This document shows, one piece after another, positions 1 through 11,160 of a stretch of DNA of 64,000 nucleotides. The notes under the pieces are model-generated. The model was not told where the DNA came from and made no database searches. It worked only from the letters and a program-made list of their open reading frames with translations. The translations under genes were made by a program, and so were the position numbers. The DNA is from an uncultured Christensenella sp. (GTDB lineage: Bacteria; Bacillota; Clostridia; Christensenellales; CAG-917): positions 65,848-129,847 of the forward strand of contig CAJTYG010000007.1 in the NCBI GenBank assembly GCA_910584155.1, read 5' to 3'. Numbering within the stretch: the stretch's first letter is position 1; every line of letters starts with the position of its first letter.

Positions 1-495
1 GTCTTAAGCGGTATGATAGACAGTCAGACGGCTTCAAATATCATTTCCCGCCTGCTCGAATTCAGCGCAGACGACGAAAGAAAGGAAATTCAGCTTTTCA
101 TAGGCTCGGAGGGCGGCGGCTACCTCGATATGATGGCAATTTACGATACGCTCAAAATGCTGCCAAATCCGCTTGTAGGCGTTTGCGTGGGTATGACAAG
201 CAACTATTCCACGCTTTTGCTTGCGGCATGTACAAAGGGAATGCGCAGTGCGCTAAAGCACAGTACGATTGAATTTGAGCAGCCATACGGCTCATTGGGC
301 ACAGGCGCAAATCAGCAAACCGAAATCGCAATAGCGTCAAAGGAAGCCCGTCTTGAAAGAGAGGTCTTTGAAAAGGCGCTTGCCGAGGTCACTGGACAGC
401 CGCTTGAGAGGATACACGAGGACTGCGAAAAGGGTGTGGAGCTTACGGCGGACGAGGCAAAGGCTTACGGAATCATCGATACCGTGCTCGATTAG
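1..495 (+). CDS. ClpP-family protein, predicted catalytically inactive paralogue (5' end lies outside the window)
   Basis: The frame is open to base 1 (VLSG precedes the first Met). It aligns to the ClpP core: IGSEGGG vs INSPGG, GMTSNYSTLLL vs GMAASMGAFLL, IEFEQP vs MIHQP, EKGVELTADEA vs DRDxxxSAxEA. The triad positions read Asn, Glu and Gly instead of Ser, His and Asp. Confidence 0.75.
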   Translation, partial: VLSGMIDSQTASNIISRLLEFSADDERKEIQLFIGSEGGGYLDMMAIYDTLKMLPNPLVGVCVGMTSNYSTLLLAACTKGMRSALKHSTIEFEQPYGSLGTGANQQTEIAIASKEARLEREVFEKALAEVTGQPLERIHEDCEKGVELTADEAKAYGIIDTVLD

Positions 496-516
496 GAGGA
501 TACTGAGGATAAAATT

Positions 517-1038
517 ATGGAAAAACAAAGGATTATCACTTTAAACGGAAGTGTGGACGAAGCAAGCGCAATGAGCGTCATTCTGCAGCTTTTGCACTAC
601 AACGACGATGACGAAAATAAGGAAATAAGCCTATATATCAATTCGCCCGGCGGCATAATCACATACGGGCTTGCCATTTACGACACTATACAGCACATCA
701 AGGCGCCCGTGTCAACGGTGTGCTGCGGTATGGCGGCGTCTATGGGTGCGTTTTTGCTGTCCTGCGGCGTCAAGGGCAGGCGTTTTGCGCTACCGCACAG
801 CAGGATACTCATTCATCAGCCGCTTATCTATGCGCAGCACGGAATGATAAAATCTCAGAGCGCAATGCAAAAGATGGCGGACAGTATTTTGCAGTCAAGA
901 GAGCAGCTTGAAGAAATACTTGCTAAAAACATAGGCAAGTCGATAGAGCAGATACACGCCGACTGCGAAAGAGACAACTGGATGAGCGCAGACGAGGCAG
1001 TGGCTTACGGCATAATAGACAAAATATCGGGCAGATAA
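517..1038 (+). CDS. ClpP-family serine protease with intact triad and a short N-terminus
   Basis: Motifs INSPGG, GMAASMGAFLL (Ser), LIHQP (His) and ERDNWMSADEA (Asp) are present. GAGGA lies about 6 nt upstream of the ATG. The ORF starts about 25 residues later than canonical ClpP, and an in-frame TAG lies 7 codons upstream. Confidence 0.8.
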   Translation: MEKQRIITLNGSVDEASAMSVILQLLHYNDDDENKEISLYINSPGGIITYGLAIYDTIQHIKAPVSTVCCGMAASMGAFLLSCGVKGRRFALPHSRILIHQPLIYAQHGMIKSQSAMQKMADSILQSREQLEEILAKNIGKSIEQIHADCERDNWMSADEAVAYGIIDKISGR

Positions 1039-1052
1039 ATCGGGATATAAAA

Positions 1053-3884
1053 ATGAAGCGGCAAAACCTAAAGCATAAATTTAAAGTAGTATTTCCAAAG
1101 CTTTGTCTTTGGAGCCTGTTAGCGCTGTTTTTTGCAGTAGCTATTGCGCTTTGCATTGCGTATTTCTGCACGAAGGATACGGGAAATAAGGGCTTGGGAC
1201 TTTCGCTCGGTGTGTTTGCGGGCGCAGCGGCTGTGATTTTGATGTCGATAGCTACGCTTGCGGCTTATTTTGGGGCGAGGAAAAAGGGCGCTCATAAAAA
1301 GTATTCCGTTGAAGTCTGGACGGTAGCAGGTATTTTTTTGGTCTGTGTATTGATAAAATTTGTCGCAGGACTTGTGCTTTATTTGCAGGGCAATCCCGAA
1401 TTTACAGATAAGGATAACTCCGTCCACGAGGGATTTATGATAATATTTTCCTCATTTTACGAGGGTGTGGGCAAGCTCGCATACGAGGGTATTACGCCGC
1501 TACAACACATCTGGGCAAGCATTGCGTACTATGGCGCTTCGCTGTATGCAGGTCTTATGTATCTTATCATCATATCCGCAAAGGCGAGCTACGAGGGCTA
1601 TTCGTATATGCGGATGTGCTTTAAAGGCTACACAAAAAACAATATCTACGTCTTTACGGCGCTTATCGATGAAACGCTCGAGCTTGCTAAGTCTGTAAAA
1701 AGCACGTACGGCAAAAAGGCGACTATAGTCTTTGCGGGCAGTGCGCTGCAGCCCTTTGACAGGCACGACGAGCTGTGCAGAGAGGCTATGGCAAACGGCT
1801 TTTTGTATTGGTCGTATTCGGATAAAAACAGATCGATTGCAGATATACTGCATTTGGACAACCGCAATCTGAACGACTATACAAAGAGCTACACAGTCTT
1901 CGCCTTCGAAGCAAACGAGCATATCCCCGAAGAGGAAAACAATATGGACGCCGTATTTTCGGATATAGAAAGGCGTATTGCTCAGGGCGACGATGGACTG
2001 CGCATAGAGTATTATATCCTCACAAAGCGCAATATAAATTATCAGGCATACGAAAGCAAAAAGAAAGAGCTTATAAAGTCTTTTAAAGCTTCGGACGACA
2101 GTTTAAAAGACTTGAGCGATAAGCAAATCAAAAAGGAATTCAGCAAGCGATTTGTGCTCGAGATATGGAACGAGGCAAAAACCGTTGCCGAGCGTGCCGT
2201 GTCCGACGTGCTTGAAGCAGGTCTCAGACAGCAGCTTGCAGAAAACGGCGCAAGGAAAGTGTCCGTATGGTCGCTTGGCTTCGGCGGCACGGCGGAAGCT
2301 ATTGCAAACACGCTGTTTGTGCAGACGGCAAATATCGACAAAAACGGATATAGCCGAGCCTACACCGTTGACGTCTTTGACAAGCTGATAAGCGGCGCAG
2401 ACAATGCGGCGCAGGCGAGCTTGGACGGAATATTCAGATTTTCTCATCCAGACTATATTTTTGCAAATAGTGACGACGAAATCAAAGCGGAATACGAAAG
2501 ACGTGCGGTTGAAAACGTCGATAAGATTTTGAACTGTAATTTTGATTTGCCTGCAATGTTGGAAGACTGCATTCAAAGCAAGGTTGATGCGTGTGATGAG
2601 GCAAAAGAGGAAGCTAAAAGAATAGAAAATCAGTTAAAAGCTGCCGAACGCTACCGTGATATGATAGAGGCATTTTTTGCGGATATTTATAAAAACCAGC
2701 TTGAAAGCATAGTTAAAGACGCCGTTTCGGATAGGTTAAACGGCAATTCCGTAAAAGTTGATGACAAGTGGATAGATGATGTTTTAAATAAATTGCAGCA
2801 GTTATCCAAAGATATGCTAAATAAAAAATCAGTCATCAATGATGAAAAATTTTTAAAGCTCGTTGCAGATGAGCTTGCAAAATTGCCTGCCGACAAAGCG
2901 TTTATCGAAGAGGTAATAAGCGAATATATTTTGAGTGTTGCGGAGCTGAATTTCCCGCACCCCATATTCCGATTTAACGCTTATGACTGTCTGTCGAGAG
3001 GCTTTTACGAAAGATTTGCGGAGGTGACGGACAAGCCGTCCAATAGGCTTGATAACGTCAAATTCGATACGCCAGACGTTATTGTGATTGCGACGGGCGA
3101 CGACTATCAAAACGTCCGCATTGCAAATACTCTGCTTCAATATGCCGTCAATCATAAAAAGGACGGCAGCCGTCAATATATCGTCATAAATATTTTCAAC
3201 AGGCAGAACAACGATTTGATAGGAACTTTCGGCGGGAAGTGGGAAGAGAATAAACTGTCTGTTATGATAGGCAGCGGCTCCGTTGACCTTATCATAGTCG
3301 GCAACTATGAGGACACATACAACTACGAGGGCTTGACGGACTTAAAAACTGCGGCAAGCTGGCAAAACTATATATACAATAAAAGCAACGACCATATAAC
3401 TCACGATCCCAATACCGTAAACAGATTTTTGTTTGCTTCGGGCAGGGGCTGCGATGGAAAGATGTTTATGGACGACATTATGGCATTCGCAGGCAACGCC
3501 AAAAGAATGACGTTAAAATCGCAGCCTAAAGACGCAGGGCAGGAGCTTGCGGACAGTCTTGCGGATTATTATGCGCTCGATTTGTGGAAGAAGGAATCTA
3601 ATAAGAGCGTTGTCGCCTTTAAGAAAATGTATATGGCGTTTTATGAGGTCGCTTTAAGAGACACGGTTGAGTATGCAAAACGGGTTTTTGCAGTCGAGCA
3701 CGACAGGTGGACAAGGCTGTATATTTCGGACGGCTGGGTTTATCGCAGCATAAAGAATGAGGACAACAAGCAGCATGCGTGCTTAAAGGACGTCAGACAT
3801 ATTGAACTTACGACGCTCATCTACGACTTTTTGAACGCAATATGGGCGGTGTCTGAAATAATCGATACGGATAAAAAACTATGA
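1053..3884 (+). CDS. Large membrane protein: N-terminal TM helices, two Rossmann/TrkA-N-like modules, a coiled-coil region, and a C-terminal RyR-like motif
   Basis: 943-aa ORF starting 14 nt after the preceding gene. Hydrophobic helices fall in the first ~190 aa. Rossmann-like stretches include VSVWSLGFGGTAEAIANTL and DVIVIATGDDYQNVRIANTLL. The middle is rich in K/E/A heptad-like sequence. The C-terminus AVEHDRWTRLYISDGWVY...K.H resembles the RyR-domain signature. Confidence 0.6.
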   Translation: MKRQNLKHKFKVVFPKLCLWSLLALFFAVAIALCIAYFCTKDTGNKGLGLSLGVFAGAAAVILMSIATLAAYFGARKKGAHKKYSVEVWTVAGIFLVCVLIKFVAGLVLYLQGNPEFTDKDNSVHEGFMIIFSSFYEGVGKLAYEGITPLQHIWASIAYYGASLYAGLMYLIIISAKASYEGYSYMRMCFKGYTKNNIYVFTALIDETLELAKSVKSTYGKKATIVFAGSALQPFDRHDELCREAMANGFLYWSYSDKNRSIADILHLDNRNLNDYTKSYTVFAFEANEHIPEEENNMDAVFSDIERRIAQGDDGLRIEYYILTKRNINYQAYESKKKELIKSFKASDDSLKDLSDKQIKKEFSKRFVLEIWNEAKTVAERAVSDVLEAGLRQQLAENGARKVSVWSLGFGGTAEAIANTLFVQTANIDKNGYSRAYTVDVFDKLISGADNAAQASLDGIFRFSHPDYIFANSDDEIKAEYERRAVENVDKILNCNFDLPAMLEDCIQSKVDACDEAKEEAKRIENQLKAAERYRDMIEAFFADIYKNQLESIVKDAVSDRLNGNSVKVDDKWIDDVLNKLQQLSKDMLNKKSVINDEKFLKLVADELAKLPADKAFIEEVISEYILSVAELNFPHPIFRFNAYDCLSRGFYERFAEVTDKPSNRLDNVKFDTPDVIVIATGDDYQNVRIANTLLQYAVNHKKDGSRQYIVINIFNRQNNDLIGTFGGKWEENKLSVMIGSGSVDLIIVGNYEDTYNYEGLTDLKTAASWQNYIYNKSNDHITHDPNTVNRFLFASGRGCDGKMFMDDIMAFAGNAKRMTLKSQPKDAGQELADSLADYYALDLWKKESNKSVVAFKKMYMAFYEVALRDTVEYAKRVFAVEHDRWTRLYISDGWVYRSIKNEDNKQHACLKDVRHIELTTLIYDFLNAIWAVSEIIDTDKKL

Positions 3885-4747
3885 GTGGAAATTTGCTGTT
3901 TAAGCTATATGAGCTTTTAAATGAAAACAAATACGTCACTTTTAAAGGCGTAATGAAAAGCGGTTTTGACGGCAAGACCGCATTTGAGCTTATGCAAATG
4001 CTCGTATCCTGCGGCGCATTGGTTGAAACGGCAGACAGGGGCGTGCTTGAGGTCAAATACGGCGAGCTCAACGCATTTATGCACTCAAAAAATCTTTGGA
4101 TAGAGGACAGCGAAGATTATCTTGAGCTTAAAAAGCGTGCCGACACGCTGTCGCTCACGCAGGTTTTTTGGCTGAAAGAGGCGATAAAAAACGACGGCGT
4201 TTTTCAACTTGACGGGGATATTTCCGACGATAAGCTACTTGTTCTTGAAAAATCTGTCGAGCAGGGCATATTCAGTAAAACGAGCGAGAAAACATTTTTG
4301 TGCAATATTCCTTTGTTTGCGGTGCGCAAATTGGTCTGTTTTGCCGACGAAAAGCTTTGCAGGTTTTTGACCTATATCTTTGCAAGCGTGAGGGAAGTGA
4401 TCAGGTTTAAGGAAGATAAGGACAAACGCAAGGCGTTTTTCAGAGAAAACTGTGAGTTTTACGGAATATTCCCCGACTTGGATTTAGATTATCTCGATTA
4501 CAAAGAGGAAGACGTAGCGCATTTGGACTGGGGCGACAGGCACCTGTTTGACGATCTTATAGAGGGCGTGACGTACTCTGTTTCGGCACGCAATTTTGCA
4601 AAGCTGGATCTTAATAAGGTTTATAGATATCCCGACGACGAAAACGGCGCAACGGAAATGACCGACGTTATGCTTGGCGAGGTATTGGAAAAAATGTTGC
4701 GTATAGCCGCCGCTATAAAAGCGGACGATATCGGAAACAAGGAGTAA
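3881..4747 (+). CDS. Hypothetical protein with tandem winged-helix-like N-terminal repeats (paralogue of the next gene)
   Basis: ATGA overlap with the upstream ORF. The N-terminus KLYELLNENKYVTFKGVMKSGFDGKTAFELMQMLVSCGALVE aligns with the N-terminus of the 4750-5958 product. Confidence 0.55.
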   Translation: MSGNLLFKLYELLNENKYVTFKGVMKSGFDGKTAFELMQMLVSCGALVETADRGVLEVKYGELNAFMHSKNLWIEDSEDYLELKKRADTLSLTQVFWLKEAIKNDGVFQLDGDISDDKLLVLEKSVEQGIFSKTSEKTFLCNIPLFAVRKLVCFADEKLCRFLTYIFASVREVIRFKEDKDKRKAFFRENCEFYGIFPDLDLDYLDYKEEDVAHLDWGDRHLFDDLIEGVTYSVSARNFAKLDLNKVYRYPDDENGATEMTDVMLGEVLEKMLRIAAAIKADDIGNKE

Positions 4748-4749
4748 AC

Positions 4750-5958
4750 GTGGAAAAACAACTGAAAGCATATGCCATACTATTGGACGAAAAAAGTGTG
4801 TCGTTGAAAAGCCTTGTAAAGGGCGGATACGATATGAAATTCGCTTTTGAGTTTATTAAAAAGCTGCTTGCGCTCGGATTTGTCAAGGACAGCGGCGACG
4901 GCAATTTTTTGCTTTGCGTACCCGAGCAGGAGGTCAGAAAAATAATGCGAGCGGAAAAATGCGAATACAAAGATTTTTCCGATGACGAGCTAAAAAGAAT
5001 CGCCGACGACATCGACCTTAGCGCAATTCTCGTTTTGGCGCATATCAGTCAAAGCGAAACGGGATATAGCCTGATTGAGCTTTGCGAGGCGTTTAAAGGT
5101 GACTTTACAAGGCATTTGGAAGTTTTGCGAGGCGAGGGCTTGATATCTTATGACGAGGGCAGTTATATAGGCAAAATAAGCCCCGAAAACCTTTTGAAGC
5201 TTATACTTATGGCGTTGGACATTTTGAGCTTCGAGCTTGCAATGATAAATAAAGACCGCTGCGACTTCGATACTCCTGCGCTCAAGAAAAAGCGCATAGA
5301 TGAAATAAACAATCTTACCGCACAGCTATTAAGAAAGGGAGAGCTTATCAGAAATGCTATCGCTATGGGCGAGCTTGTTGCTGATGGCGACTTAGAGTAT
5401 GATTTCGGCTACGAGGACGATGACGACACATATTTATACGACGATGATGACAGCGACGAGGAAGATGAAAAAGGCGGGGAAGATGATTGTTTTGGATATC
5501 ATAAAATAGCGGACGGTCTTTATGAGAAGGACGGAAAGCTTTACGATGAATTTTTCTTCCCTGTTGATGATTACAGCGAGGATAACGACGACAGCGAAAC
5601 TACCGACAGCGAAACTACCGACAGCGAAACTACCGACGGCGAAGCCGCCGACGGCAAAAACGCAGATGACGGCGAGAATGATAGCGGCGACGGCGAAAAC
5701 GAGGCTGAAAGTGAAGATAAAGTCAGAGCCGATATGATAAGCTTCCTTAAGCAGTTCAATGTCGATGACGCCGAAGCACTGTATGACCAGATGTTTGAAC
5801 AGTTTGACGGCTTGGATGATATTGATGATTTCGACGGCTTGGATGAAATCGATGATGAAGATATTGACGTCGATGACGATTTTTTCGATGATATCGATGA
5901 TACCGATGATATCGATGATATCGACGATATAGACAGCGACGGTGACGGGGACGAATAA
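4750..5958 (+). CDS. Hypothetical winged-helix-like protein with an extremely acidic, repeat-containing C-terminal half
   Basis: GTG start 6 nt after AAGGAG and 2 nt after the upstream stop. The N-terminus is paralogous to the 3881-4747 product. The last ~200 aa are dominated by D/E, including SETTD x3 and DDIDD-type repeats. Confidence 0.6.
   Translation: MEKQLKAYAILLDEKSVSLKSLVKGGYDMKFAFEFIKKLLALGFVKDSGDGNFLLCVPEQEVRKIMRAEKCEYKDFSDDELKRIADDIDLSAILVLAHISQSETGYSLIELCEAFKGDFTRHLEVLRGEGLISYDEGSYIGKISPENLLKLILMALDILSFELAMINKDRCDFDTPALKKKRIDEINNLTAQLLRKGELIRNAIAMGELVADGDLEYDFGYEDDDDTYLYDDDDSDEEDEKGGEDDCFGYHKIADGLYEKDGKLYDEFFFPVDDYSEDNDDSETTDSETTDSETTDGEAADGKNADDGENDSGDGENEAESEDKVRADMISFLKQFNVDDAEALYDQMFEQFDGLDDIDDFDGLDEIDDEDIDVDDDFFDDIDDTDDIDDIDDIDSDGDGDE
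5593..5637 (+). repeat. Three perfect tandem copies of a 15-bp unit (agcgaaactaccgac) encoding SETTD
   Basis: Read directly from the sequence: units at 5593-5607, 5608-5622 and 5623-5637. Confidence 0.95.
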
Positions 5959-5989
5959 ATCAGCCTCGGCGCTTTGCTTTGAGGCTGAT
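5959..5989 (+). terminator. Hairpin after the acidic-protein gene (ATCAGCCTC / GAGGCTGAT)
   Basis: 9-bp perfect inverted repeat with a 13-nt loop, directly after the stop codon. The U-tract is weak. Confidence 0.45.
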
Positions 5990-6131: not shown

Positions 6132-7919
6132 ATGAGCCAAGGTTTTACACCCGAATTTTTGGATGAATTGAAGTACAAATGCGATATCGTGGAAATCATA
6201 TCGCAGTATGTTCCATTGCAAAAAAACGGAAGCAGATATAAGGGCTGCTGTCCCTTTCATAAGGAAAAAACCGCCTCGTTTTGCGTTATGCCCAACGACG
6301 GATATTATCACTGCTTTGGCTGCGGAGTAAGCGGCGACGTGATAAAATTTGTTATGGAAATGGAATCGATGAGTTTCTTCGATACCGTGCGGTATCTCGC
6401 CGACAAGGTGGGAATGCAAATGCCAGAAATGAAGCTTGATCCGCAGTTTAAAGAGAAAAAGGAGCGCAGCGAGGTCTTAAAACAGCTTATGAGGGATGCG
6501 GCGGTGTACTATCGCAACAACCTTATCGACCCCGTTAAGGGCAAGGCTGCAAGAGAGTATCTCGAAAAGCGAGGCATAGGCGAGGAAACCTCAAAGAGAT
6601 ACGGACTTGGGCTTTCGCTTGACTACGACAGCCTTGTGGGCTATTTGAGGCGAAAGGAATATAAGCTGAAGGATCTTTTCGATTGCGGGCTTATCGCCAA
6701 CGTGGACAAGCCGTCCGACGCATTTGCAAACCGTATAATCGTGCCTATAATAAACTCCAAAAGCGAAGTGGTGGCATTTGGCGGGCGCATATATCACGGT
6801 GAGGAAAATATAGCAAAATACAAAAACTCCACAAACACGCAGTTGTTTGACAAGGGTAGGACGATATACGGCGTAAACTTTTTAAAGCGTGACAGACACG
6901 CAGGCGCAGTTATCCACGACATAATTTTGGTAGAGGGCTATATGGACGTCATATCTCTCGGGGCGGCGGGCGTGCGAAACGCCGTTGCGGGAATGGGCAC
7001 TGCGCTCACCGAGGGGCAGGCGCACGAGCTGAAGCGTCTTGCACCAAAGGTATATGTCTGCTACGACGGCGACGGCGCAGGCAAAAAGGCGACGCTACGC
7101 AATGTGGATATACTTTTAAACAGCGGGCTCGAGGTGCGTGTAGTATCTCTTGACGACGGAAAGGATCCCGACGAAACCGTGCGTATGGACGGAGTAGACG
7201 GGTTTGTAAAAAAGCTTGAGGAAGCCGTGCCCGTCACAGATTATAAGCTGAAGCTTTGCGAGGACGCTTGCGATATGTCCACATACGACGGGCGTACAAA
7301 ATACGTAAAATCAGCCTTGACGGTGCTTGCGGCGCTTAAGGATAGCTCCGAGCGTGAGGTGTATCTTGAGCTTATATCCTTAAAGAGCGGCGTGTCAATG
7401 GGCAAGCTGAGAGAGATGGCGGGTGCTGACGGAGCACAAAAGCAGGAACCCGTATCGCAGGAAAAAATAGCGAGGGGGCTTGCTGCGTCACGCTTTGTGT
7501 TAAGCTGCATAATGCAGAACAAAAAGTTTGTCAACATCGACGATATCGACGACGATTGGATATTGCACCCCGTGCATAAGGAAGTCGTCGCTTATGCGAG
7601 AGGCTTGCAGGGCGAGGCGTTCAACGTAGGCAAAATGTACAGCGCAGTTGCGGACGACGGCGAGATAAACGCTGTGATTGACCTGCAGGCGGAGTTTGAA
7701 AAGCAGATATTTGCAAAAAAAATCAAAGAGGAAGAATACTTTTACGACTGCTTGGTCACGCTTGCAAACGAAAGCATTTTAAACAGATTGGATACGCTAA
7801 AGACGCTGTACAACACGTCGGGCAACGCCGACGAAAAGCGCAAAGCCGTTGCAGAGATAAACGTGCTGCAAAAAAAATTGAAATCTAAATCCTTAGCGGA
7901 TAAACACTTAGCTACTTAG
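6132..7919 (+). CDS. dnaG: DNA primase
   Basis: CHC2 zinc finger ([14 protein letters not shown]...YHCFGCG). TOPRIM region ([22 protein letters not shown]). Position directly upstream of sigA. Confidence 0.95.
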
Positions 7920-7929
7920 GAGGAGCATT

Positions 7930-8976
7930 GTGGACAGAGAACAACTATTAAAGCTGGAAATTGACAAGATCATCGCCATCGGCAAGGAAAAGGGTAGAGT
8001 TGCCGAGGACGAGATAATGGCAAAGCTTGAGCATTTAAACGCCACCGCCGAAGATATGGAGACGGTGTTCAATGCGTTGCAGGCTGAAAATATCAAGGTG
8101 GAGGAAGCACCCGAGGAGGATACGACAGACATCGACAAGATGATAGACAGCTCCGTGGACGACTCGGTGAAAATCTATCTTAAAGAGATAGGCAAGGTGC
8201 CGCTTTTGAGCGCCGAGCAGGAAATCGAGCTTGCAAAGCGTATGGAAAACGGCGACGAGGAAGCAAAGCGTACTTTGAGCGAAGCAAACCTGCGCCTTGT
8301 CGTTTCCATTGCAAAGCGATATGTGGGAAGGGGAATGCAGTTTCTCGACCTCATACAGGAAGGTAACCTCGGACTTATGAAAGCGGTGGAGAAATTTGAT
8401 TATACAAAGGGCTTCAAGTTTTCCACATATGCGACGTGGTGGATAAGACAGGCTATCACAAGAGCTATCGCCGATCAGGCAAGGACTATCCGTATTCCTG
8501 TCCATATGGTGGAAACCATAAACAAGCAGGTGCGTGCGACAAGACAGCTTCTTCAAAGATTGGGCAGAGAGCCGTCGCCCGAGGAAATCGCAGAGTATCT
8601 CGGCTGCTCGGAAGAGCGTGTGCGTGAGATACAAAAGATTGCGCAGGACCCCGTTTCGCTTGAAACGCCTATCGGCGAGGAAGAGGACAGTCACCTCGGC
8701 GACTTTATCGAGGACGGCACTGCGCCGTCTCCGAGCGACGTTGCAGAGAGCAATATGCTCAAAGAACAGCTCATACAGGTGCTCAATACTCTCACGCCAC
8801 GTGAGGAAAAGGTGCTGCGCCTGCGTTACGGTCTTGACGACAGCCATCCCCGCACCCTCGAGGAAGTCGGCAAGGAATTTAACGTCACCCGTGAGCGTAT
8901 CCGTCAGATAGAGGCAAAGGCGCTGAGAAAGCTCCGTCACCCCAACAGGCTCAAAAAGCTTAAGGATTTTGACTGA
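7930..8976 (+). CDS. sigA: Primary RNA polymerase sigma factor (sigma-70 family)
   Basis: Region 2 ([41 protein letters not shown]), region 3 and region 4 ([30 protein letters not shown]) are all recognisable. GTG start. Confidence 0.95.
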
Positions 8977-9656
8977 TGCCCATACGACTTGACGAAAGAC
9001 TGACCGCTATCGCAAGCCTTATAGACTACGGCTGCGTGGCGGACGTGGGCTGCGACCACGGCAAGCTTGGCTTTTATCTGCTAAGCACCGACAGGGCAAG
9101 CAAGGTCATAGCGACCGATATCAGCGCAGAAAGCTTGAAAAAAGCGCAGCAGCTTGCCTTTGACAACGACGTAGATATGCAGACAAGGCTTGGCGACGGG
9201 CTTACGCCCGTTGCGGACGGCGAGGCGGATACGGTCGTAATAGCGGGGCTCGGCGGCGACGTCATTTCAAAAATACTTGCGGGCGCACGTGCGGATAAAA
9301 AGCGATTTAAGCACTTTGTACTGTCGCCTAATACGCATCCCGAAAAGGTGCGCAGAGAGCTGAATATAAGCGGACACAGAATAAACCTCGACGACATCGT
9401 CGAGTGCGCAGGCAAGCGATATACGCTCATCAAAACCGAGCAGGGCGAACAGACGCTCGACGAGCTTCAAATTATGTTCGGCACGTTTTACAAGTCAAGC
9501 GGAAGCTTCTTAAAATATGCCGCAGAAGAGCTTGCATACAAAAAAAGCATACTCGCATCAAACGCTTCCGACGAGCTTGCCGACCGTGTGGCGCTTTTGG
9601 AAAAAGCAATACAAAACGCAAAGGAGAGCCAAAATGAAGATAAAACAAATCGTTGA
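8976..9656 (+). CDS. trmK: tRNA (adenine22-N1)-methyltransferase TrmK family
   Basis: RLxxIASLI...VADVGCDHGKL and VIAGLGG motifs. Position after sigA matches yqfN in B. subtilis. TGATG overlap with sigA. Confidence 0.8.
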   Translation: MPIRLDERLTAIASLIDYGCVADVGCDHGKLGFYLLSTDRASKVIATDISAESLKKAQQLAFDNDVDMQTRLGDGLTPVADGEADTVVIAGLGGDVISKILAGARADKKRFKHFVLSPNTHPEKVRRELNISGHRINLDDIVECAGKRYTLIKTEQGEQTLDELQIMFGTFYKSSGSFLKYAAEELAYKKSILASNASDELADRVALLEKAIQNAKESQNEDKTNR

Positions 9657-10386
9657 CGTCATAGAAAATGCGGCGCCGCTCTCGCTTGCGGAGGAATGGG
9701 ACAACGTCGGACTTATGGTGGGCGACTTAAACGGCGAGTGTACGGGTGTTATGCTTGCGCTCGACCTCACGGCAGACGTTGTAAAGCAGGCGATAGAGCA
9801 AGGGTGCGAGCTGATAGTTACGCACCACCCGTTTATATTCCGTCCGCTGAAGCGTATCGATTTTGGCGAGGCGAAGGGCGCAACGATAAAGCTGCTGATA
9901 CAAAATGGGATAAGTGTGTATTCTGCGCATACAAACCTTGACAAGTCCGAGCGTGGGCTCAACGCTGCGCTATGCAGACTGTTTAAGGCAAAATCGTTTG
10001 CTATGGACGGCGTAGGGGCAATATTTACCGTGGATAAAACCACTCTTGCCGATTTTGCAAAGCGCACCGCAAGCTTGCTCGGCGACAAAAGTGTGCGTAT
10101 GATAGGCGACCCCGACAGGACGGTAGAGCGTGTGTACGTAGTGAGCGGCAGCGGCGGAAGCGAATATAGCGCTGCTATGAAGTGTGCGGACGTGCTGCTC
10201 ACTGGCGACCTGAAGCACCACAACTATATAGACGCAATAGAGGACGGCTTTGCGCTTGTTGAATATTCGCACTTCGCAAGCGAAATAATTGCGCAGGACG
10301 TGCTTGAGGGTATTTTAAAGGAAACAAATATAAAAATAATAAAGGCAAAACAGAGCAGTCCTTTCAGACTGTTGGAGGAAATATGA
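9634..10386 (+). CDS. Nif3-like dinuclear metal centre protein (YqfO/GTP cyclohydrolase 1 type 2 homologue)
   Basis: MKIKQIVDVIENAAPLSLAEEWDNVGLMVGD and VTHHP motifs. The ATG at 9634 has AAGGAGAG upstream. The track ORF that starts at 9517 overlaps trmK. Confidence 0.85.
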   Translation: MKIKQIVDVIENAAPLSLAEEWDNVGLMVGDLNGECTGVMLALDLTADVVKQAIEQGCELIVTHHPFIFRPLKRIDFGEAKGATIKLLIQNGISVYSAHTNLDKSERGLNAALCRLFKAKSFAMDGVGAIFTVDKTTLADFAKRTASLLGDKSVRMIGDPDRTVERVYVVSGSGGSEYSAAMKCADVLLTGDLKHHNYIDAIEDGFALVEYSHFASEIIAQDVLEGILKETNIKIIKAKQSSPFRLLEEI

Positions 10387-11096
10387 AATTTGACAAGATT
10401 TTGCAGTACCAAAAGATAGAACAAGAGGCTTTGTCACTCAAGGCGGAAATGGCAAAAAGCGAGGCGTGGCAGAGATTTCAGGACGCTCAGTCAAAGCTTG
10501 AGGCAGCTACGGCAAGCATAGGCAAGCTTACAAACGAGGCAAACGAGCTGCTCAAAAACTATGAGAAAATGAGAAGCAGGATAGACGCTATAAAGAGCGA
10601 GCTTGCCGATTTTGACGGCATTCTCGAGGGCGTACAGGATGTGACCGAGGCGGACTATTATCTGAAGCTGATAAGCGCAATATCCGAAAAGCTTACCGCT
10701 CTTGAAAAAGAGGCAAACGGCGTTGCGAGCAGGATAGACCAAATCAACAGCGCATACAGCAAGACGTGGGAGCAGGGCGTAAGGGCAACGCAGGCATGCA
10801 AAAACGCAAAGGCGGAATACGGCAAATATGCAGCCGCCTTCAAGGACAGATTTGACGAAATGCAAAAGCAGCTCATTGCGCTTGCAAAGGAAATTCCGGA
10901 CGATATAATGAGCGAATACAATAGGCTCAAAAGGTCGCAGAAGCTGCCGATTTACGTCAAATTCGACGCAGAACACAAGGTGTGCGGACGTTGCCGCACC
11001 GAGGTTTCAAACGACGTATGCGCAAAGCTCAAAGCCCCCGGCGATTATGCCGAGTGCCCGAATTGCCGCCGCATACTTTATGTAGCAGAAAACTAA
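10383..11096 (+). CDS. Coiled-coil protein with a C-terminal C4 zinc ribbon (COG1579-like)
   Basis: Long K/E/A-rich helical region followed by CGRC...CPNC. Families of this type commonly sit next to nif3. Confidence 0.7.
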   Translation: MKFDKILQYQKIEQEALSLKAEMAKSEAWQRFQDAQSKLEAATASIGKLTNEANELLKNYEKMRSRIDAIKSELADFDGILEGVQDVTEADYYLKLISAISEKLTALEKEANGVASRIDQINSAYSKTWEQGVRATQACKNAKAEYGKYAAAFKDRFDEMQKQLIALAKEIPDDIMSEYNRLKRSQKLPIYVKFDAEHKVCGRCRTEVSNDVCAKLKAPGDYAECPNCRRILYVAEN

Positions 11097-11160
11097 ACCG
11101 ACGCTTTATCCTGTCATTTTGACGGGATAAAACGGCATTATAAAAAATATCAAAGCATAA

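What the first reader, a model, noticed from the sequence alone, without database searches (positions are those of the whole stretch)
1..5958. Tightly coupled five-gene operon: dead ClpP, live ClpP, a 943-aa TM/Rossmann/RyR-like protein, and two paralogous winged-helix-like proteins
Seen in the sequence: five same-strand ORFs with intergenic distances of 21, 14, -4 and 2 nt. They are closed by a hairpin at 5959-5989, ahead of the separately promoted dnaG.

The combination is unusual. It comprises a ClpP paralogue with all three catalytic residues substituted, a ClpP with an intact triad but no N-terminal axial-loop segment, a large membrane protein with nucleotide-binding-like modules and a RyR-like C-terminus, and two paralogous proteins of unknown function. 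One of those has a poly-acidic tail. No AAA+ unfoldase (ClpX/ClpC/ClpA-type) is encoded in or next to the operon within this window.

Inference: this could be a membrane-associated, ligand-gated proteolytic or signalling module rather than the housekeeping Clp system. I do not recognise this gene set as a described system.
Basis: partly seen in the sequence, partly recalled or inferred. Interest (0 to 1): 0.8.

Follow-up and report, generated by a model that had tools for sequence, protein, structure and literature searches.

The report
Gate-less ClpP pair in undescribed modular operon
The five genes are real but are only the tail of an eight-gene operon that also encodes a soluble conjugation-type (VirD4/TraG-like) ATPase; the whole set looks like a previously undescribed, rare gut-Clostridia system, probably for defence, that combines a dead/live pair of gate-less ClpP proteases with channel-like membrane proteins carrying a nucleotide-sensing RyR domain.

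Summary

The window cuts the operon. The full contig shows eight genes behind one near-consensus promoter: a Sel1-repeat protein with a C-terminal [LIV]GF tail (S302), a soluble VirD4/TraG-like P-loop ATPase, a soluble Rossmann/RyR-like paralogue (A549), then the five window genes.

Across about 45 related loci:
- S302 and the ATPase are always adjacent, and the genes downstream of them vary.
- The dead/live ClpP pair occurs in 7 distinct loci. Six carry S302 and the ATPase, and all seven have a RyR-domain protein nearby.
- The order B–W288–W402 recurs in three lineages.
- Neighbours often include defence genes.

No component matches a known defence system, and I found no literature on this gene set.

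Best reading: an undescribed modular conflict system with a nucleotide-gated pore and a non-canonical protease. The composition is solid; the mechanism is inferred.

The parts
1..495 (+). Catalytically dead ClpP paralogue (ClpR-like), C-terminal 164 of 180 codons. The gene starts 48 nt upstream of the window.
   Evidence: Pfam PF00574 E 3.8e-37. The full gene is in L001 8901-9443. Triad is Asn/Glu/Gly, and the protein starts at E. coli position 14. It belongs to a clade of ~34 clusters, none with Ser-His-Asp.
517..1038 (+). ClpP paralogue (173 aa) with an intact Ser-His-Asp triad and no N-terminal axial loop.
   Evidence: PF00574 E 1.1e-61. It scores below the TIGR00493 cut-off (205 vs 308.6 bits). 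It aligns to H. pylori ClpP from residue 27. All 7 partner copies in other loci keep Ser-His-Asp and start at E. coli position 21-23.
1053..3884 (+). B943: membrane protein with N-terminal TM helices, two Rossmann (RCK-like) domains split by a helical insert, and a C-terminal RyR domain.
   Evidence: AF2 model has pLDDT 73.6 and pTM 0.72. Foldseek best hit is hSlo1, E 4.2e-4, prob 1.0. The family has only 34 clusters. It is found in 19 loci among GTDB species genomes, all Clostridia/Christensenellales MAGs.
1101..1586 (+). B943 transmembrane region (aa 17-178): TM1, TM2, TM3, a short helix plus a conserved Gly-rich loop, then TM4, which leads straight into the first Rossmann domain.
   Evidence: Hydropathy and model helices. 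Conserved loop consensus is IGGLTFEGL with invariant G140. The resemblance to an M1-P-M2-RCK channel layout is an inference.
1641..3317 (+). B943 cytoplasmic Rossmann-like domains (aa 197-445 and 638-755), with a low-confidence helical insert (aa 457-632) between them.
   Evidence: Model pLDDT is above 90 over aa 197-445. Foldseek hits are Slo/BK, the CASTOR gating ring and paired Rossmann enzymes. The second domain is homologous to A549 (hhalign 97.4%, E 9.5e-12).
3648..3872 (+). B943 RyR domain (aa 866-940) with residues H883, W886, H908 and D925.
   Evidence: The family profile matches solved RyR domains: 6uhi E 5.5e-19 and 3nrt E 4.6e-9. H883, W886 and H908 are invariant and D925 is in >=90%. 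The spacing (+3, +25, +42) equals the ligand/catalytic residues H75/W78/H100/D117 of phage RyDEP (PMC13232231).
3881..4747 (+). W288: orphan protein with two predicted tandem winged-helix domains in its N-terminal half.
   Evidence: No Pfam, NCBIfam, PADLOC or PHROG hit. Only 3 representatives exist in 1.84 billion proteins. In the AF2 model, aa 1-141 have block-mean pLDDT mostly 71-91, dropping to 58 at aa 71-80, with an H-b-H-H-b-b pattern twice. Foldseek top hits are all wH proteins but weak, E >= 0.019.
4750..5958 (+). W402: paralogue of W288 in its first ~105 aa, with a 190-aa poly-acidic C-terminal tail (nt 5380-5955).
   Evidence: W288/W402 share 28.6% identity, E 6e-7. The tail is 45% D/E and the net charge is -85. 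The order B -> W288-like -> W402-like is conserved on two unrelated short contigs, L037 and L038.
5959..5989 (+). Stem-loop closing the operon, ahead of dnaG (6132..7919).
   Evidence: -23.8 kcal/mol for the 61-nt context, z = -3.8 against shuffles. No T-tract, and not called by the terminator scan.

Best explanation
The window holds the distal five genes of an eight-gene operon. Gene order:
1. S302, a Sel1-repeat protein with a C-terminal [LIV]GF tail.
2. TraG611, a soluble VirD4/TraG-like P-loop ATPase.
3. A549, a soluble Rossmann/RyR-like paralogue of B.
4. Dead ClpP.
5. Live ClpP.
6. B943.
7. W288.
8. W402.

Shown: S302 + ATPase is the invariant core of a locus restricted to Christensenellales and related Clostridia. 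The genes downstream of the core are hypervariable. The RCK/RyR proteins (A, B), the dead/live gate-less ClpP pair and the wH proteins are recurrent cargo modules.

Inferred: this is a conflict (anti-phage or anti-mobile-element) system. The ATPase with S302 is the sensing or motor component.
- B943, possibly co-assembled with A549 as a cytoplasmic RCK-like ring, would be a membrane pore. It would be gated through its RyR/Rossmann domains by an adenine-nucleotide or ADP-ribose-type ligand.
- The ClpPd/ClpP heteromer lacks the axial gate. It therefore cannot be controlled in the ClpX/ClpA manner. It would be a dedicated protease, either fed by the VirD4-like hexamer or acting on unstructured substrates.
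- The strongly acidic, disordered W402 tail is a candidate regulator or substrate.
For: Operon structure.
- Eight co-oriented genes have gaps of 20, 73, 10, 21, 14, -4 and 2 nt.
- The best promoter match of the region, TTGACA-17-TATATT (11 of 12), lies 30 nt before S302.
- A hairpin follows W402.

Core and cargo.
- In every locus where the contig continues past S302, the ATPase follows it directly.
- S302 has 260 clusters, against 34 each for B and for the dead ClpP.
- L044 and L045 have 96-100% identical flanks but different cargo.

ClpP pair linkage. The pair occurs in 7 distinct loci. Six carry S302 + ATPase, and two of those have 2-nt and -1-nt junctions. Five are directly followed by B. 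The other two have small RyR proteins within 5-8 kb.

ClpP biochemistry. Across the dead clade no member retains Ser-His-Asp and the His is always lost, while every live partner is intact. Both partners lack the N-terminal loops. Those loops gate the pore (PMC9035409).

B943. The RyR domain is confirmed by the family profile. It keeps all four RyDEP ligand/catalytic residues at identical spacing. The fold resembles Slo/BK TM + tandem RCK. A and B are paralogues.

Defence context. Genes within 5-10 kb of the system, from the PADLOC/Pfam scans of 145 ORFs within 5 kb and from the contig annotations, include:
- Thoeris TIR/Macro, AbiH, RloB + AAA_21, HipA, RES, HicB;
- DRT reverse transcriptase (E 1.7e-120), DolB, AriA, TIR_2 x2;
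- SIR2 + WYL, and TerD/kinase/PP2C/vWA clusters.

Other cargo is nucleotide-centric: NUDIX, Metallophos, HD and ATP-grasp.
Against: - There is no experimental or expression evidence, and all loci come from MAGs or metagenomes.
- Many neighbours are housekeeping or metabolic genes. In this window the operon sits beside dnaG-rpoD, so the 'defence island' argument is qualitative. I did not run a background control.
- PADLOC gives no hit to any of the eight proteins except a weak mad8 match to the ATPase (E 1.4e-7).
- No signal-producing enzyme (TIR, cyclase) is encoded in the operon.
- The channel reading of B rests on a model with pLDDT 52-81 in the TM region (aa 11-190) and on low TM-scores (0.15). 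There is no K+-filter motif and no Pfam ion-channel or TrkA_N hit.
- The S302 [LIV]GF tail is equally conserved in loci without the ClpP pair, so it is not specific to these ClpPs.
- ClpP H-site residues are only partly conserved.
Confidence: 0.45

Rival explanations
1. A new kind of ATP-dependent protease. The soluble VirD4/TraG-like (FtsK/HerA-superfamily) hexamer, with S302 as adaptor, docks on the ClpPd/ClpP chamber. Docking would use the C-terminal [LIV]GF tail in the ClpP hydrophobic sites, replacing the AAA+ IGF-loop partner. The hexamer would translocate substrates into the chamber. B and A would be regulators or membrane anchors.
For: The ATPase and the ClpP pair are adjacent in 6 of 7 loci and translationally coupled in L026 and L028. 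The ATPase has intact Walker A (GSGKT) and Walker B (LLDEF) motifs and no TM segment. The [LIVMA]GF motif is present in 109 of 120 S302 homologues and is usually the last 3-4 residues. IGF loops are how ClpX and ClpA dock on ClpP (PMC9035409). Loss of the axial loops argues against a canonical AAA+ partner.
Against: About 87% of S302 + ATPase loci have no ClpP cargo yet keep the tail motif. T4CPs are not known to unfold proteins. H-site residues are only partly conserved.
Confidence: 0.25
2. A housekeeping, ligand-regulated ion channel or membrane signalling module with its own regulatory protease. This is essentially the first reader's view, with no role in conflict.
For: The TM + tandem RCK-like + RyR architecture resembles regulated cation channels. 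A soluble paralogue next to a membrane one recalls MthK/Ktr-type gating rings (my own knowledge). The position is next to dnaG-rpoD. Many neighbours are metabolic.
Against: Distribution is patchy and rare: 34 clusters, and 19 loci among the 185,579 species genomes scanned. Genomic positions differ between lineages. Cargo is swapped between near-identical flanks. Defence genes are frequent neighbours. There is no K+ selectivity motif.
Confidence: 0.15
3. A decayed fragment of a conjugative or integrative element, in which a coupling protein (T4CP) and accessory genes remain without further function.
For: The best NCBIfam and plasmid matches of the ATPase are 'VirD4-like conjugal transfer protein, CD1115 family', at 23-30% identity.
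Against: The score is below the family cut-off (209.7 vs 250 bits). There is no N-terminal TM anchor. No relaxase, VirB4 or other T4SS gene lies within +/-10 kb in any locus. The S302 + ATPase pair is conserved intact across 260 clusters. All ORFs are intact and tightly spaced.
Confidence: 0.05
4. The ClpP-like genes are prophage head-maturation (prohead) proteases.
For: PHROG head-maturation protease families match the live copy (phrog_94, E 4.4e-37).
Against: Cellular ClpP models match much better (NF001368 E 1.9e-65; PDB ClpPs E ~1e-51). No capsid, portal or terminase genes are nearby. The B and S302 families have no relatives in 2.9 million viral contigs.
Confidence: 0.02

Closest known systems
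ClpP/ClpR heteromeric proteolytic cores (cyanobacterial ClpP3/R, plastid ClpP/R rings; also ClpP1P2 of Listeria and Mycobacterium)
   Same: A catalytically inactive ClpP paralogue is encoded next to an active one, implying mixed rings (PMC6508832, listed by title and abstract only; PMC9035409). The ClpP core sequence is conserved.
   Different: Both subunits here lack the N-terminal axial loops that gate the pore and contact the AAA+ partner. No ClpX/ClpC/ClpA gene is linked. The genetic partner is a VirD4/TraG-like ATPase plus a Sel1 protein. The clade is tiny and restricted to gut Clostridia MAGs.
Type IV secretion coupling proteins (VirD4/TraG/TrwB; Firmicutes CD1115 family)
   Same: P-loop NTPase domain with T4SS-DNA_transf, TrwB_AAD_bind and TraG-D_C matches. 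Walker A and B motifs are intact.
   Different: No transmembrane anchor and no T4SS or relaxase genes. The score is below the family cut-off. It is always paired with a ~300-aa Sel1-repeat protein and followed by variable cargo.
RCK-gated cation channels (MthK, Slo1/BK, GsuK) and KtrAB/TrkAH
   Same: TM region followed directly by tandem Rossmann-type domains. A soluble paralogue is encoded alongside. The best structural matches are Slo/BK gating rings.
   Different: No TVGYG-type filter and no Pfam TrkA_N or Ion_trans hit. There is an extra 175-aa helical insert and a C-terminal RyR domain. The genomic context is not ion homeostasis.
RyR (R12-type) domain proteins, including phage RyDEP, a 2'/3'cADPR glycosidase or sponge that inactivates Thoeris (PMC13232231)
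   Same: Same domain. The four ligand/catalytic residues His, Trp, His and Asp are conserved at identical spacing in B943.
   Different: It is host-encoded and fused to a membrane/Rossmann protein. There is no pairwise similarity to any phage record. The ligand is unknown. It could be a sensor rather than an enzyme.
Defence systems built from a conserved NTPase plus interchangeable effectors (e.g. Lamassu, CBASS, Avs; ietAS = ATPase + protease)
   Same: An invariant ATPase-containing core, swappable downstream modules, patchy distribution and co-location with other defence genes.
   Different: None of the proteins matches PADLOC models of those systems. The ATPase class (T4CP-like) and the effector classes (gate-less ClpP pair, RCK/RyR membrane protein) have not been reported in such systems, as far as my searches reach.

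Membership tests
ClpP (Pfam PF00574 / MEROPS S14; NCBIfam TIGR00493 equivalog) | Profile match to the ClpP fold | tested here: met
   PF00574 E 3.8e-37 (dead copy) and 1.1e-61 (live copy). PDB ClpPs match at E 1e-34 and 9e-52.
ClpP (Pfam PF00574 / MEROPS S14; NCBIfam TIGR00493 equivalog) | Ser-His-Asp catalytic triad | tested here: met
   Met for the 173-aa protein (window 517-1038), which keeps Ser-His-Asp. Not met for the 180-aa protein, which has Asn/Glu/Gly.
ClpP (Pfam PF00574 / MEROPS S14; NCBIfam TIGR00493 equivalog) | N-terminal axial loop that gates the pore and contacts the AAA+ partner | tested here: not met
   The proteins start at E. coli mature positions 14 and 23. The same truncation is seen in all 7 pairs.
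ClpP (Pfam PF00574 / MEROPS S14; NCBIfam TIGR00493 equivalog) | Score above the curated equivalog cut-off | tested here: not met
   TIGR00493 scores 205.3 and 123.1 bits against a cut-off of 308.6. NF001368 scores 220.6 and 136.2 against 249.
ClpR-type inactive subunit in a mixed ClpP ring | ClpP fold without the triad, encoded with an active ClpP | tested here: met
   No member of the dead clade has Ser-His-Asp. In all 7 loci an intact copy follows directly.
ClpR-type inactive subunit in a mixed ClpP ring | Physical co-assembly into hetero-heptamers or tetradecamers | not testable with these tools
   No multimer prediction or biochemistry was available.
VirD4/TraG type IV coupling protein | T4CP P-loop NTPase domain with Walker A/B | tested here: met
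   PF02534 E 4.3e-30, PF12696 E 4.1e-23, PF10412 E 5.4e-16. GSGKT is at aa 101 and LLDEF at aa 432.
VirD4/TraG type IV coupling protein | N-terminal transmembrane anchor | tested here: not met
   The maximum 19-residue Kyte-Doolittle hydropathy is 1.26, so there is no TM segment.
VirD4/TraG type IV coupling protein | Encoded with T4SS or relaxase genes; score above the family cut-off | tested here: not met
   No such genes lie within +/-10 kb in any locus. NF045973 scores 209.7 bits against a cut-off of 250.
RyR domain (Pfam PF02026, R12-type) | Profile-level match to RyR domains | tested here: met
   The single sequence is below Pfam GA (19.4 vs 27.4 bits). The 27-sequence family profile hits 6uhi at 5.5e-19 and 3nrt at 4.6e-9. 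Foldseek gives 6uhi prob 0.99.
RyR domain (Pfam PF02026, R12-type) | Ligand-contact residues His, Trp, His and Asp (RyDEP H75, W78, H100, D117) | tested here: met
   H883, W886, H908 and D925 have identical spacing. Three are invariant and D925 is in >=90% of the family.
RyR domain (Pfam PF02026, R12-type) | Binding or cleavage of ADPR-type nucleotides | not testable with these tools
   Needs biochemistry.
RCK/TrkA_N-gated pore-loop cation channel | RCK (TrkA_N) domains after the inner helix | tested here: inconclusive
   No PF02254 hit. The AF2 model has two Rossmann-like domains whose best Foldseek hits are Slo1/BK (E 4.2e-4, prob 1.0), but TM-scores are only ~0.15.
RCK/TrkA_N-gated pore-loop cation channel | Pore helix plus selectivity-filter signature (T-V-G-Y-G or a variant) | tested here: not met
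   The conserved loop is IGGLTFEGL (YEGVGKLAYEGI in this protein). There is no TxGYG motif.
Winged-helix (wHTH) proteins | H-b-H-H-b-b fold | tested here: inconclusive
   The AF2 model of W288 shows the pattern twice, with block-mean pLDDT mostly 71-91 over aa 1-141 and 58 at aa 71-80. The model came from a 3-sequence alignment. Foldseek hits (MarR, IclR, GntR, Stn1, RPC62) have E >= 0.019. There is no sequence-profile hit.
Any catalogued anti-phage defence system (PADLOC-DB v2) | Match of component proteins to system models | tested here: not met
   There are no hits for seven of the eight proteins. The ATPase has only a weak mad8 hit, E 1.4e-7.
Phage prohead (head-maturation) protease | Encoded with capsid, portal or terminase genes, in viral genomes | tested here: not met
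   No such neighbours. The B and S302 families have no relatives in viral contigs.

The most novel reading that the evidence does not exclude
The dead/live, gate-less ClpP pair is the proteolytic chamber of a new class of ATP-dependent protease. Its motor would be a soluble type-IV-coupling-protein-like (FtsK/HerA-superfamily) ATPase, docked through the C-terminal [LIV]GF tail of a Sel1-repeat adaptor. The machine would be wired to a host-encoded membrane pore that senses ADP-ribose or cADPR through a RyR domain. That would be a bacterial immune effector built on the same domain that phages use (RyDEP) to destroy Thoeris signals.
Probability: 0.15. Interest if true: 0.9.

Novelty: new variant of a known kind. 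Interest (0 to 1): 0.72.

Why it matters
If the genetic coupling reflects a physical complex, this would be the first ClpP chamber driven or controlled by a non-AAA+ ATPase. It would also be a natural example of ClpP subunits that have discarded their axial gate, the state that ADEP antibiotics induce artificially.

Separately, B943 places a RyR domain with a complete RyDEP-type ligand site on a host membrane protein with a Slo-like Rossmann ring. This makes the question 'what do bacterial RyR domains sense?' directly testable. It also hints at a host-side counterpart of the phage cADPR-degrading proteins.

The S302 + ATPase core with swappable cargo defines a candidate defence family in Christensenellales, an abundant but poorly studied gut lineage. 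Five of the eight protein families currently have no Pfam, NCBIfam or PADLOC model.

Tried and rejected
- **Family scans.** PADLOC, PHROG, Pfam and NCBIfam scans of all eight proteins gave no system-level match.
- **Prophage protease.** Rejected, because there are no structural phage genes and no viral-contig relatives.
- **Conjugative-element remnant.** Rejected, because there is no TM anchor, no T4SS or relaxase, and the pair is conserved intact.
- **Canonical unfoldase in the window.** Searched with a ClpC/ClpB-like query and found none. This query might miss a very divergent ClpX.
- **Search attempts that failed or returned little.**
  - The search for related loci with the full B and S302 alignments failed for lack of conserved stretches. 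Trimmed alignments worked.
  - The metagenome scan added only 5 loci.
  - phmmer of the ATPase against the PDB found nothing.
  - The A549 profile against the PDB found nothing useful.
  - tblastn of the B RyR domain against phage genomes found nothing.
- **More system components among neighbours.** Family HMMs found no further divergent TraG/S302 copies in the 'B-solo' loci.
- **Literature.** Searches for ClpP + VirD4/TraG, RCK + anti-phage and coupling protein + defence returned nothing relevant. The mad8 hit could not be interpreted from the MADS preprint.
- **ClpP H-site conservation.** The check was inconclusive.

Full report
**1.

One search lists five + strand ORFs at 13(1)..495, 517..1038, 1053..3884, 3881..4747 and 4750..5958. 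The gaps are 21, 14, -4 and 2 nt. They are followed by dnaG (6132..7919) and rpoD (7930..8976).

- Both small proteins are ClpP homologues: PF00574 E 3.8e-37 and 1.1e-61.
- Residue-level alignments to solved ClpPs show the first has Asn/Glu/Gly in place of Ser/His/Asp. The second keeps the triad.
- A 49-sequence alignment anchored on E. coli S97/H122/D171 confirms this. It places the N-termini at E. coli mature positions 14 and 23, so both lack the axial-loop segment.
- The hairpin at 5959-5989 is strong: -23.8 kcal/mol for the 61-nt context, z = -3.8. It has no T-tract, and the consensus terminator scan does not call it.
- W288 and W402 share 28.6% identity over their first ~105 residues, E 6e-7.
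- The last 192 residues of W402 are 45% Asp/Glu, and the protein has a net charge of -85.

**2. The window truncates the unit**

The frame of the first ORF is open at base 1. An exact-protein look-up placed the 943-aa protein on a 220-kb MAG contig (GCA_949935765.1, locus L001). Upstream on the same strand lie three further genes:

- S302, a 302-aa protein with no Pfam hit.
- TraG611, a 611-aa protein with T4SS-DNA_transf, TraG-D_C and TrwB_AAD_bind domains (E 4e-30 to 5e-16).
- A549, a 549-aa protein with no Pfam hit.

The complete 180-aa dead ClpP follows. The gaps along the operon are 20, 73, 10, 21, 14, -4 and 2 nt. An RtcB gene on the opposite strand bounds the unit upstream. The best promoter-like site in the 5.9 kb scanned is TTGACA-17-TATATT (11 of 12). 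It sits 30 nt before the S302 start, which has a GAGGAGG ribosome-binding site. The unit is therefore an eight-gene operon of about 10.5 kb, and it does contain an ATPase, though not an AAA+ one.

**3. What the parts are**

*TraG611.* It has Walker A (GSGKT) and Walker B (LLDEF) motifs and no hydrophobic segment. Its nearest named relatives are Firmicutes 'VirD4-like conjugal transfer protein, CD1115 family' proteins, at 23-30% identity. It scores 209.7 bits against the family cut-off of 250.

*S302.* It has a Sel1-repeat core (family profile vs PDB 8sxq, E 1.5e-5). It also has a conserved C-terminal tail, P-x-K-x-x-G-F. Among 120 homologues, 109 carry [LIVMA]GF, and in 89 of these it lies 0-1 residues from the C-terminus.

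*B943.*
- The family is small: 34 clusters in 5.8 billion proteins.
- Its profile matches solved RyR domains at E 5.5e-19 and 4.6e-9.
- E882, H883, R885, W886, G894, W895 and H908 are invariant, and D925 is nearly so.
- A 2026 preprint shows that phage RyR-domain proteins (RyDEP) bind or hydrolyse 2'/3'cADPR using H75, W78, H100 and D117 (PMC13232231). B943's H883, W886, H908 and D925 have exactly the same spacing. Most family members keep the motif.
- The AF2 model (pLDDT 73.6, pTM 0.72) shows N-terminal TM helices and a Rossmann-like domain at aa 197-445 (pLDDT >90). A low-confidence helical insert follows, then a second Rossmann-like domain at aa 638-755 and the helical RyR end.
- Foldseek's best hits are hSlo1/BK (E 4.2e-4, prob 1.0, 451 columns), other Slo channels and the CASTOR gating ring. 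The Bt-RyR chimera also appears (prob 0.99). TM-scores are low (~0.15) because the matches are partial.
- The arrangement TM3, short helix, conserved Gly-rich loop (IGGLTFEGL) and TM4 leading into a Rossmann domain resembles an M1-P-M2-RCK channel. There is no K+-filter motif, so this is an inference.

*A549.* It is a paralogue of B's second Rossmann domain (hhalign 97.4%, E 9.5e-12). It ends in an EHxRW-containing segment that matches B's RyR region (BLAST E 6.6e-4 between relatives). Longer A-family members have hydrophobic N-termini, but A549 has none.

*W288.* It has only two relatives among 1.84 billion representative proteins. Its model predicts two tandem winged-helix units in the N-terminal half, with block-mean pLDDT mostly 71-91. 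Foldseek top hits are uniformly wH proteins but statistically weak, E >= 0.019.

**4. Comparative genomics**

I collected about 45 loci from B homologues, dead-ClpP homologues, S302 homologues and pattern scans. I annotated them with my own ORF calls plus phmmer/hmmsearch.

a) *Core.* The ATPase follows S302 directly in every locus where the contig continues past S302. S302 has 260 clusters, far more than B or the dead ClpP at 34 each.

b) *Cargo after the core varies:*

| Locus | Cargo after S302 + ATPase |
|---|---|
| L004, L007, L014, L015 | A-B |
| L001 (this operon) | A-ClpPd-ClpP-B-W-W |
| L025, L030, L035 (divergent orientation) | ClpPd-ClpP-B |
| L026, L028 | ClpPd-ClpP alone, with junctions of 2 and -1 nt |
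| L032, L042 | Metallophosphatase |
| L044 | NUDIX + a 1678-aa protein |
| L045 | 702-aa protein + SNF2 helicase + 561-aa protein |
| L039-41 | 160-aa protein + A + ATP-grasp + HD, again immediately upstream of dnaG-rpoD |

L044 and L045 have 96-100% identical flanks but different cargo.

c) *The ClpP pair.* It occurs in 7 distinct loci. Six carry S302 + ATPase, and the exception is L021. Five are directly followed by B. The other two have 96-aa or 302-aa RyR proteins nearby.

d) *The W proteins.* Two unrelated short contigs preserve the order B C-terminus, W288-like, W402-like. L025 has a W-like protein after B.

e) *Distribution.* All genome hits are Clostridia/Christensenellales MAGs from gut or rumen. 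There are none in viral contigs.

**5. Context**

The following genes lie within 5-10 kb of the system in different loci:

- HipA_C and RES (L003); TerD, SIR2 and WYL (L006).
- AbiH, RloB, AAA_15/21 and HATPase_c_3 (L026).
- Thoeris ThsB_TIR/ThsA_Macro and HicB (L028).
- vWA-PP2C-kinase-TerD clusters (L016, L032, L042).

I also scanned 145 neighbouring ORFs within 5 kb. PADLOC gave matches to a DRT reverse transcriptase (E 1.7e-120), DolB (1e-35), AriA (5e-25), MADS components, MkoA, IetA and PtuA. Pfam gave TIR_2 (two proteins) and AAA_21.

Many neighbours are ordinary metabolic or housekeeping genes, and I had no matched background. The enrichment is therefore suggestive, not demonstrated.

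**6. Interpretation**

*Shown:* the gene content, the domain assignments, the dead/live gate-less ClpP pairing, the genetic linkage of that pair to S302 + ATPase and to RyR proteins, and the core-plus-variable-cargo organisation.

*Inferred:*

- The system acts in biological conflict. This rests on its patchy distribution, the cargo swapping, the defence-gene neighbours and the nucleotide-centric cargo enzymes.
- B943 is a ligand-gated membrane pore. Its RyR/Rossmann domains would sense an adenine-nucleotide or ADPR-type molecule, possibly as a ring with A549.
- The ClpP pair is a dedicated protease that cannot be regulated like canonical ClpP. The N-terminal loops gate the pore and engage the AAA+ partner (PMC9035409).
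- Two sub-models remain open. Either the VirD4-like hexamer with S302 feeds or docks on the ClpP chamber, or the pair acts as an open-gate peptidase on disordered targets such as the W402 acidic tail.
- The conserved [LIV]GF tail of S302 is an attractive docking candidate, by analogy with IGF loops. It is just as conserved where no ClpP cargo exists. Its partner may therefore be the ATPase, the housekeeping ClpP or something else.

**7. Known relatives and novelty**

The closest known kinds are:

- ClpP/ClpR mixed cores (PMC6508832, listed);
- type IV coupling proteins;
- RCK-gated channels;
- RyR/RyDEP nucleotide-binding domains;
- NTPase-plus-variable-effector defence systems.

None of their defining sets is fully met (see the membership table). 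PADLOC has no model for the system. Seven literature searches found no description. The source databases give these proteins no names.

I rate it a new variant of known kinds (a modular ATPase-plus-effector locus and a ClpP/ClpR pair). There is a real but unproven chance of something categorically new, namely a ClpP chamber partnered with a non-AAA+ motor.

**8. Limits**

- All sequences come from MAGs or metagenomes.
- No multimer prediction, expression data or biochemistry was available.
- The TM part of the B model and the whole C-terminal half of W288 are low-confidence.
- Loci were found through a few anchors, so the co-occurrence counts are small (7 ClpP-pair loci) and may be biased by how they were retrieved.

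Noticed in passing
L001 1-4265 (immediately upstream of the operon; outside the window): The 3' end of a 6282-aa Flg_new-repeat giant protein is followed by three small proteins (331, 331 and 210 aa). I read their N-terminal hydrophobic anchors as SipW/TasA-like signals, but did not test this. A divergent RtcB RNA ligase gene follows.
   Followed up: no
L039-L041 vs window/L001: The S302 + VirD4-like ATPase core with different cargo (160 aa, A-family 730 aa, ATP-grasp, HD) also lies directly upstream of dnaG-rpoD in another lineage. This suggests a conserved insertion hotspot before the dnaG-rpoD operon.
   Followed up: partly
L044 10001-18630 vs L045 10001-19384: Flanking genes are 96-100% identical. 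The genes after S310-TraG609 differ completely: NUDIX + a 1678-aa protein in one, and 702 aa + SNF2 helicase + 561 aa in the other. This is cargo replacement within closely related genomes.
   Followed up: partly
L016 3712-9474; L006 1160-8202; L032 2698-8665; L042 3339-8394: A TerY-P-like cluster (vWA, PP2C phosphatase, Ser/Thr kinase, TerD, LRR protein) recurs. It lies next to B-family genes in L006 and L016, and next to S302 + ATPase in L032 and L042.
   Followed up: partly
S302 C-terminus, L001 5270-5311 and homologues P0158-P0277: A conserved C-terminal [LIVMA]GF motif is found in 109 of 120 homologues, usually as the last 3-4 residues. It is preceded by WKE[VI]TNS..P.K. It resembles the ClpX/ClpA IGF docking tripeptide, but it is equally conserved in loci that lack the ClpP pair.
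   Followed up: partly
L028 1-6174: Thoeris genes (ThsB_TIR, ThsA_Macro) lie ~5 kb from a 302-aa RyR-domain protein and ~7 kb from the start of the S-TraG-ClpPd-ClpP operon. This is notable because phage RyR proteins degrade Thoeris signals (PMC13232231).
   Followed up: no
window 5520-5740 (W402 aa ~258-330): A short tandem peptide repeat, SETTD x3, lies inside the acidic tail. The opposite-frame ORFs listed there (5522..5737 +, 5571..5759 -) are repeat artefacts.
   Followed up: no
window 6132-11100: Downstream is a typical housekeeping cluster: dnaG, rpoD, a TrmK-like methyltransferase, NIF3/DUF34 and a Zn-ribbon protein, then a GH2 beta-galactosidase.
   Followed up: no
P0248 (S302 homologue): NCBI names one S302-family protein 'cell division protein SepF'. 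Nothing in the sequence analysis supports this, so it is probably an annotation error.
   Followed up: no
L026 5475-7119 and L028 6238-7110: A DUF1292 protein and ~190-210-aa acidic proteins of unknown function occupy the same positions in both loci, between the small RyR gene and the S-TraG-ClpPd-ClpP operon. They may be further components of that variant.
   Followed up: no
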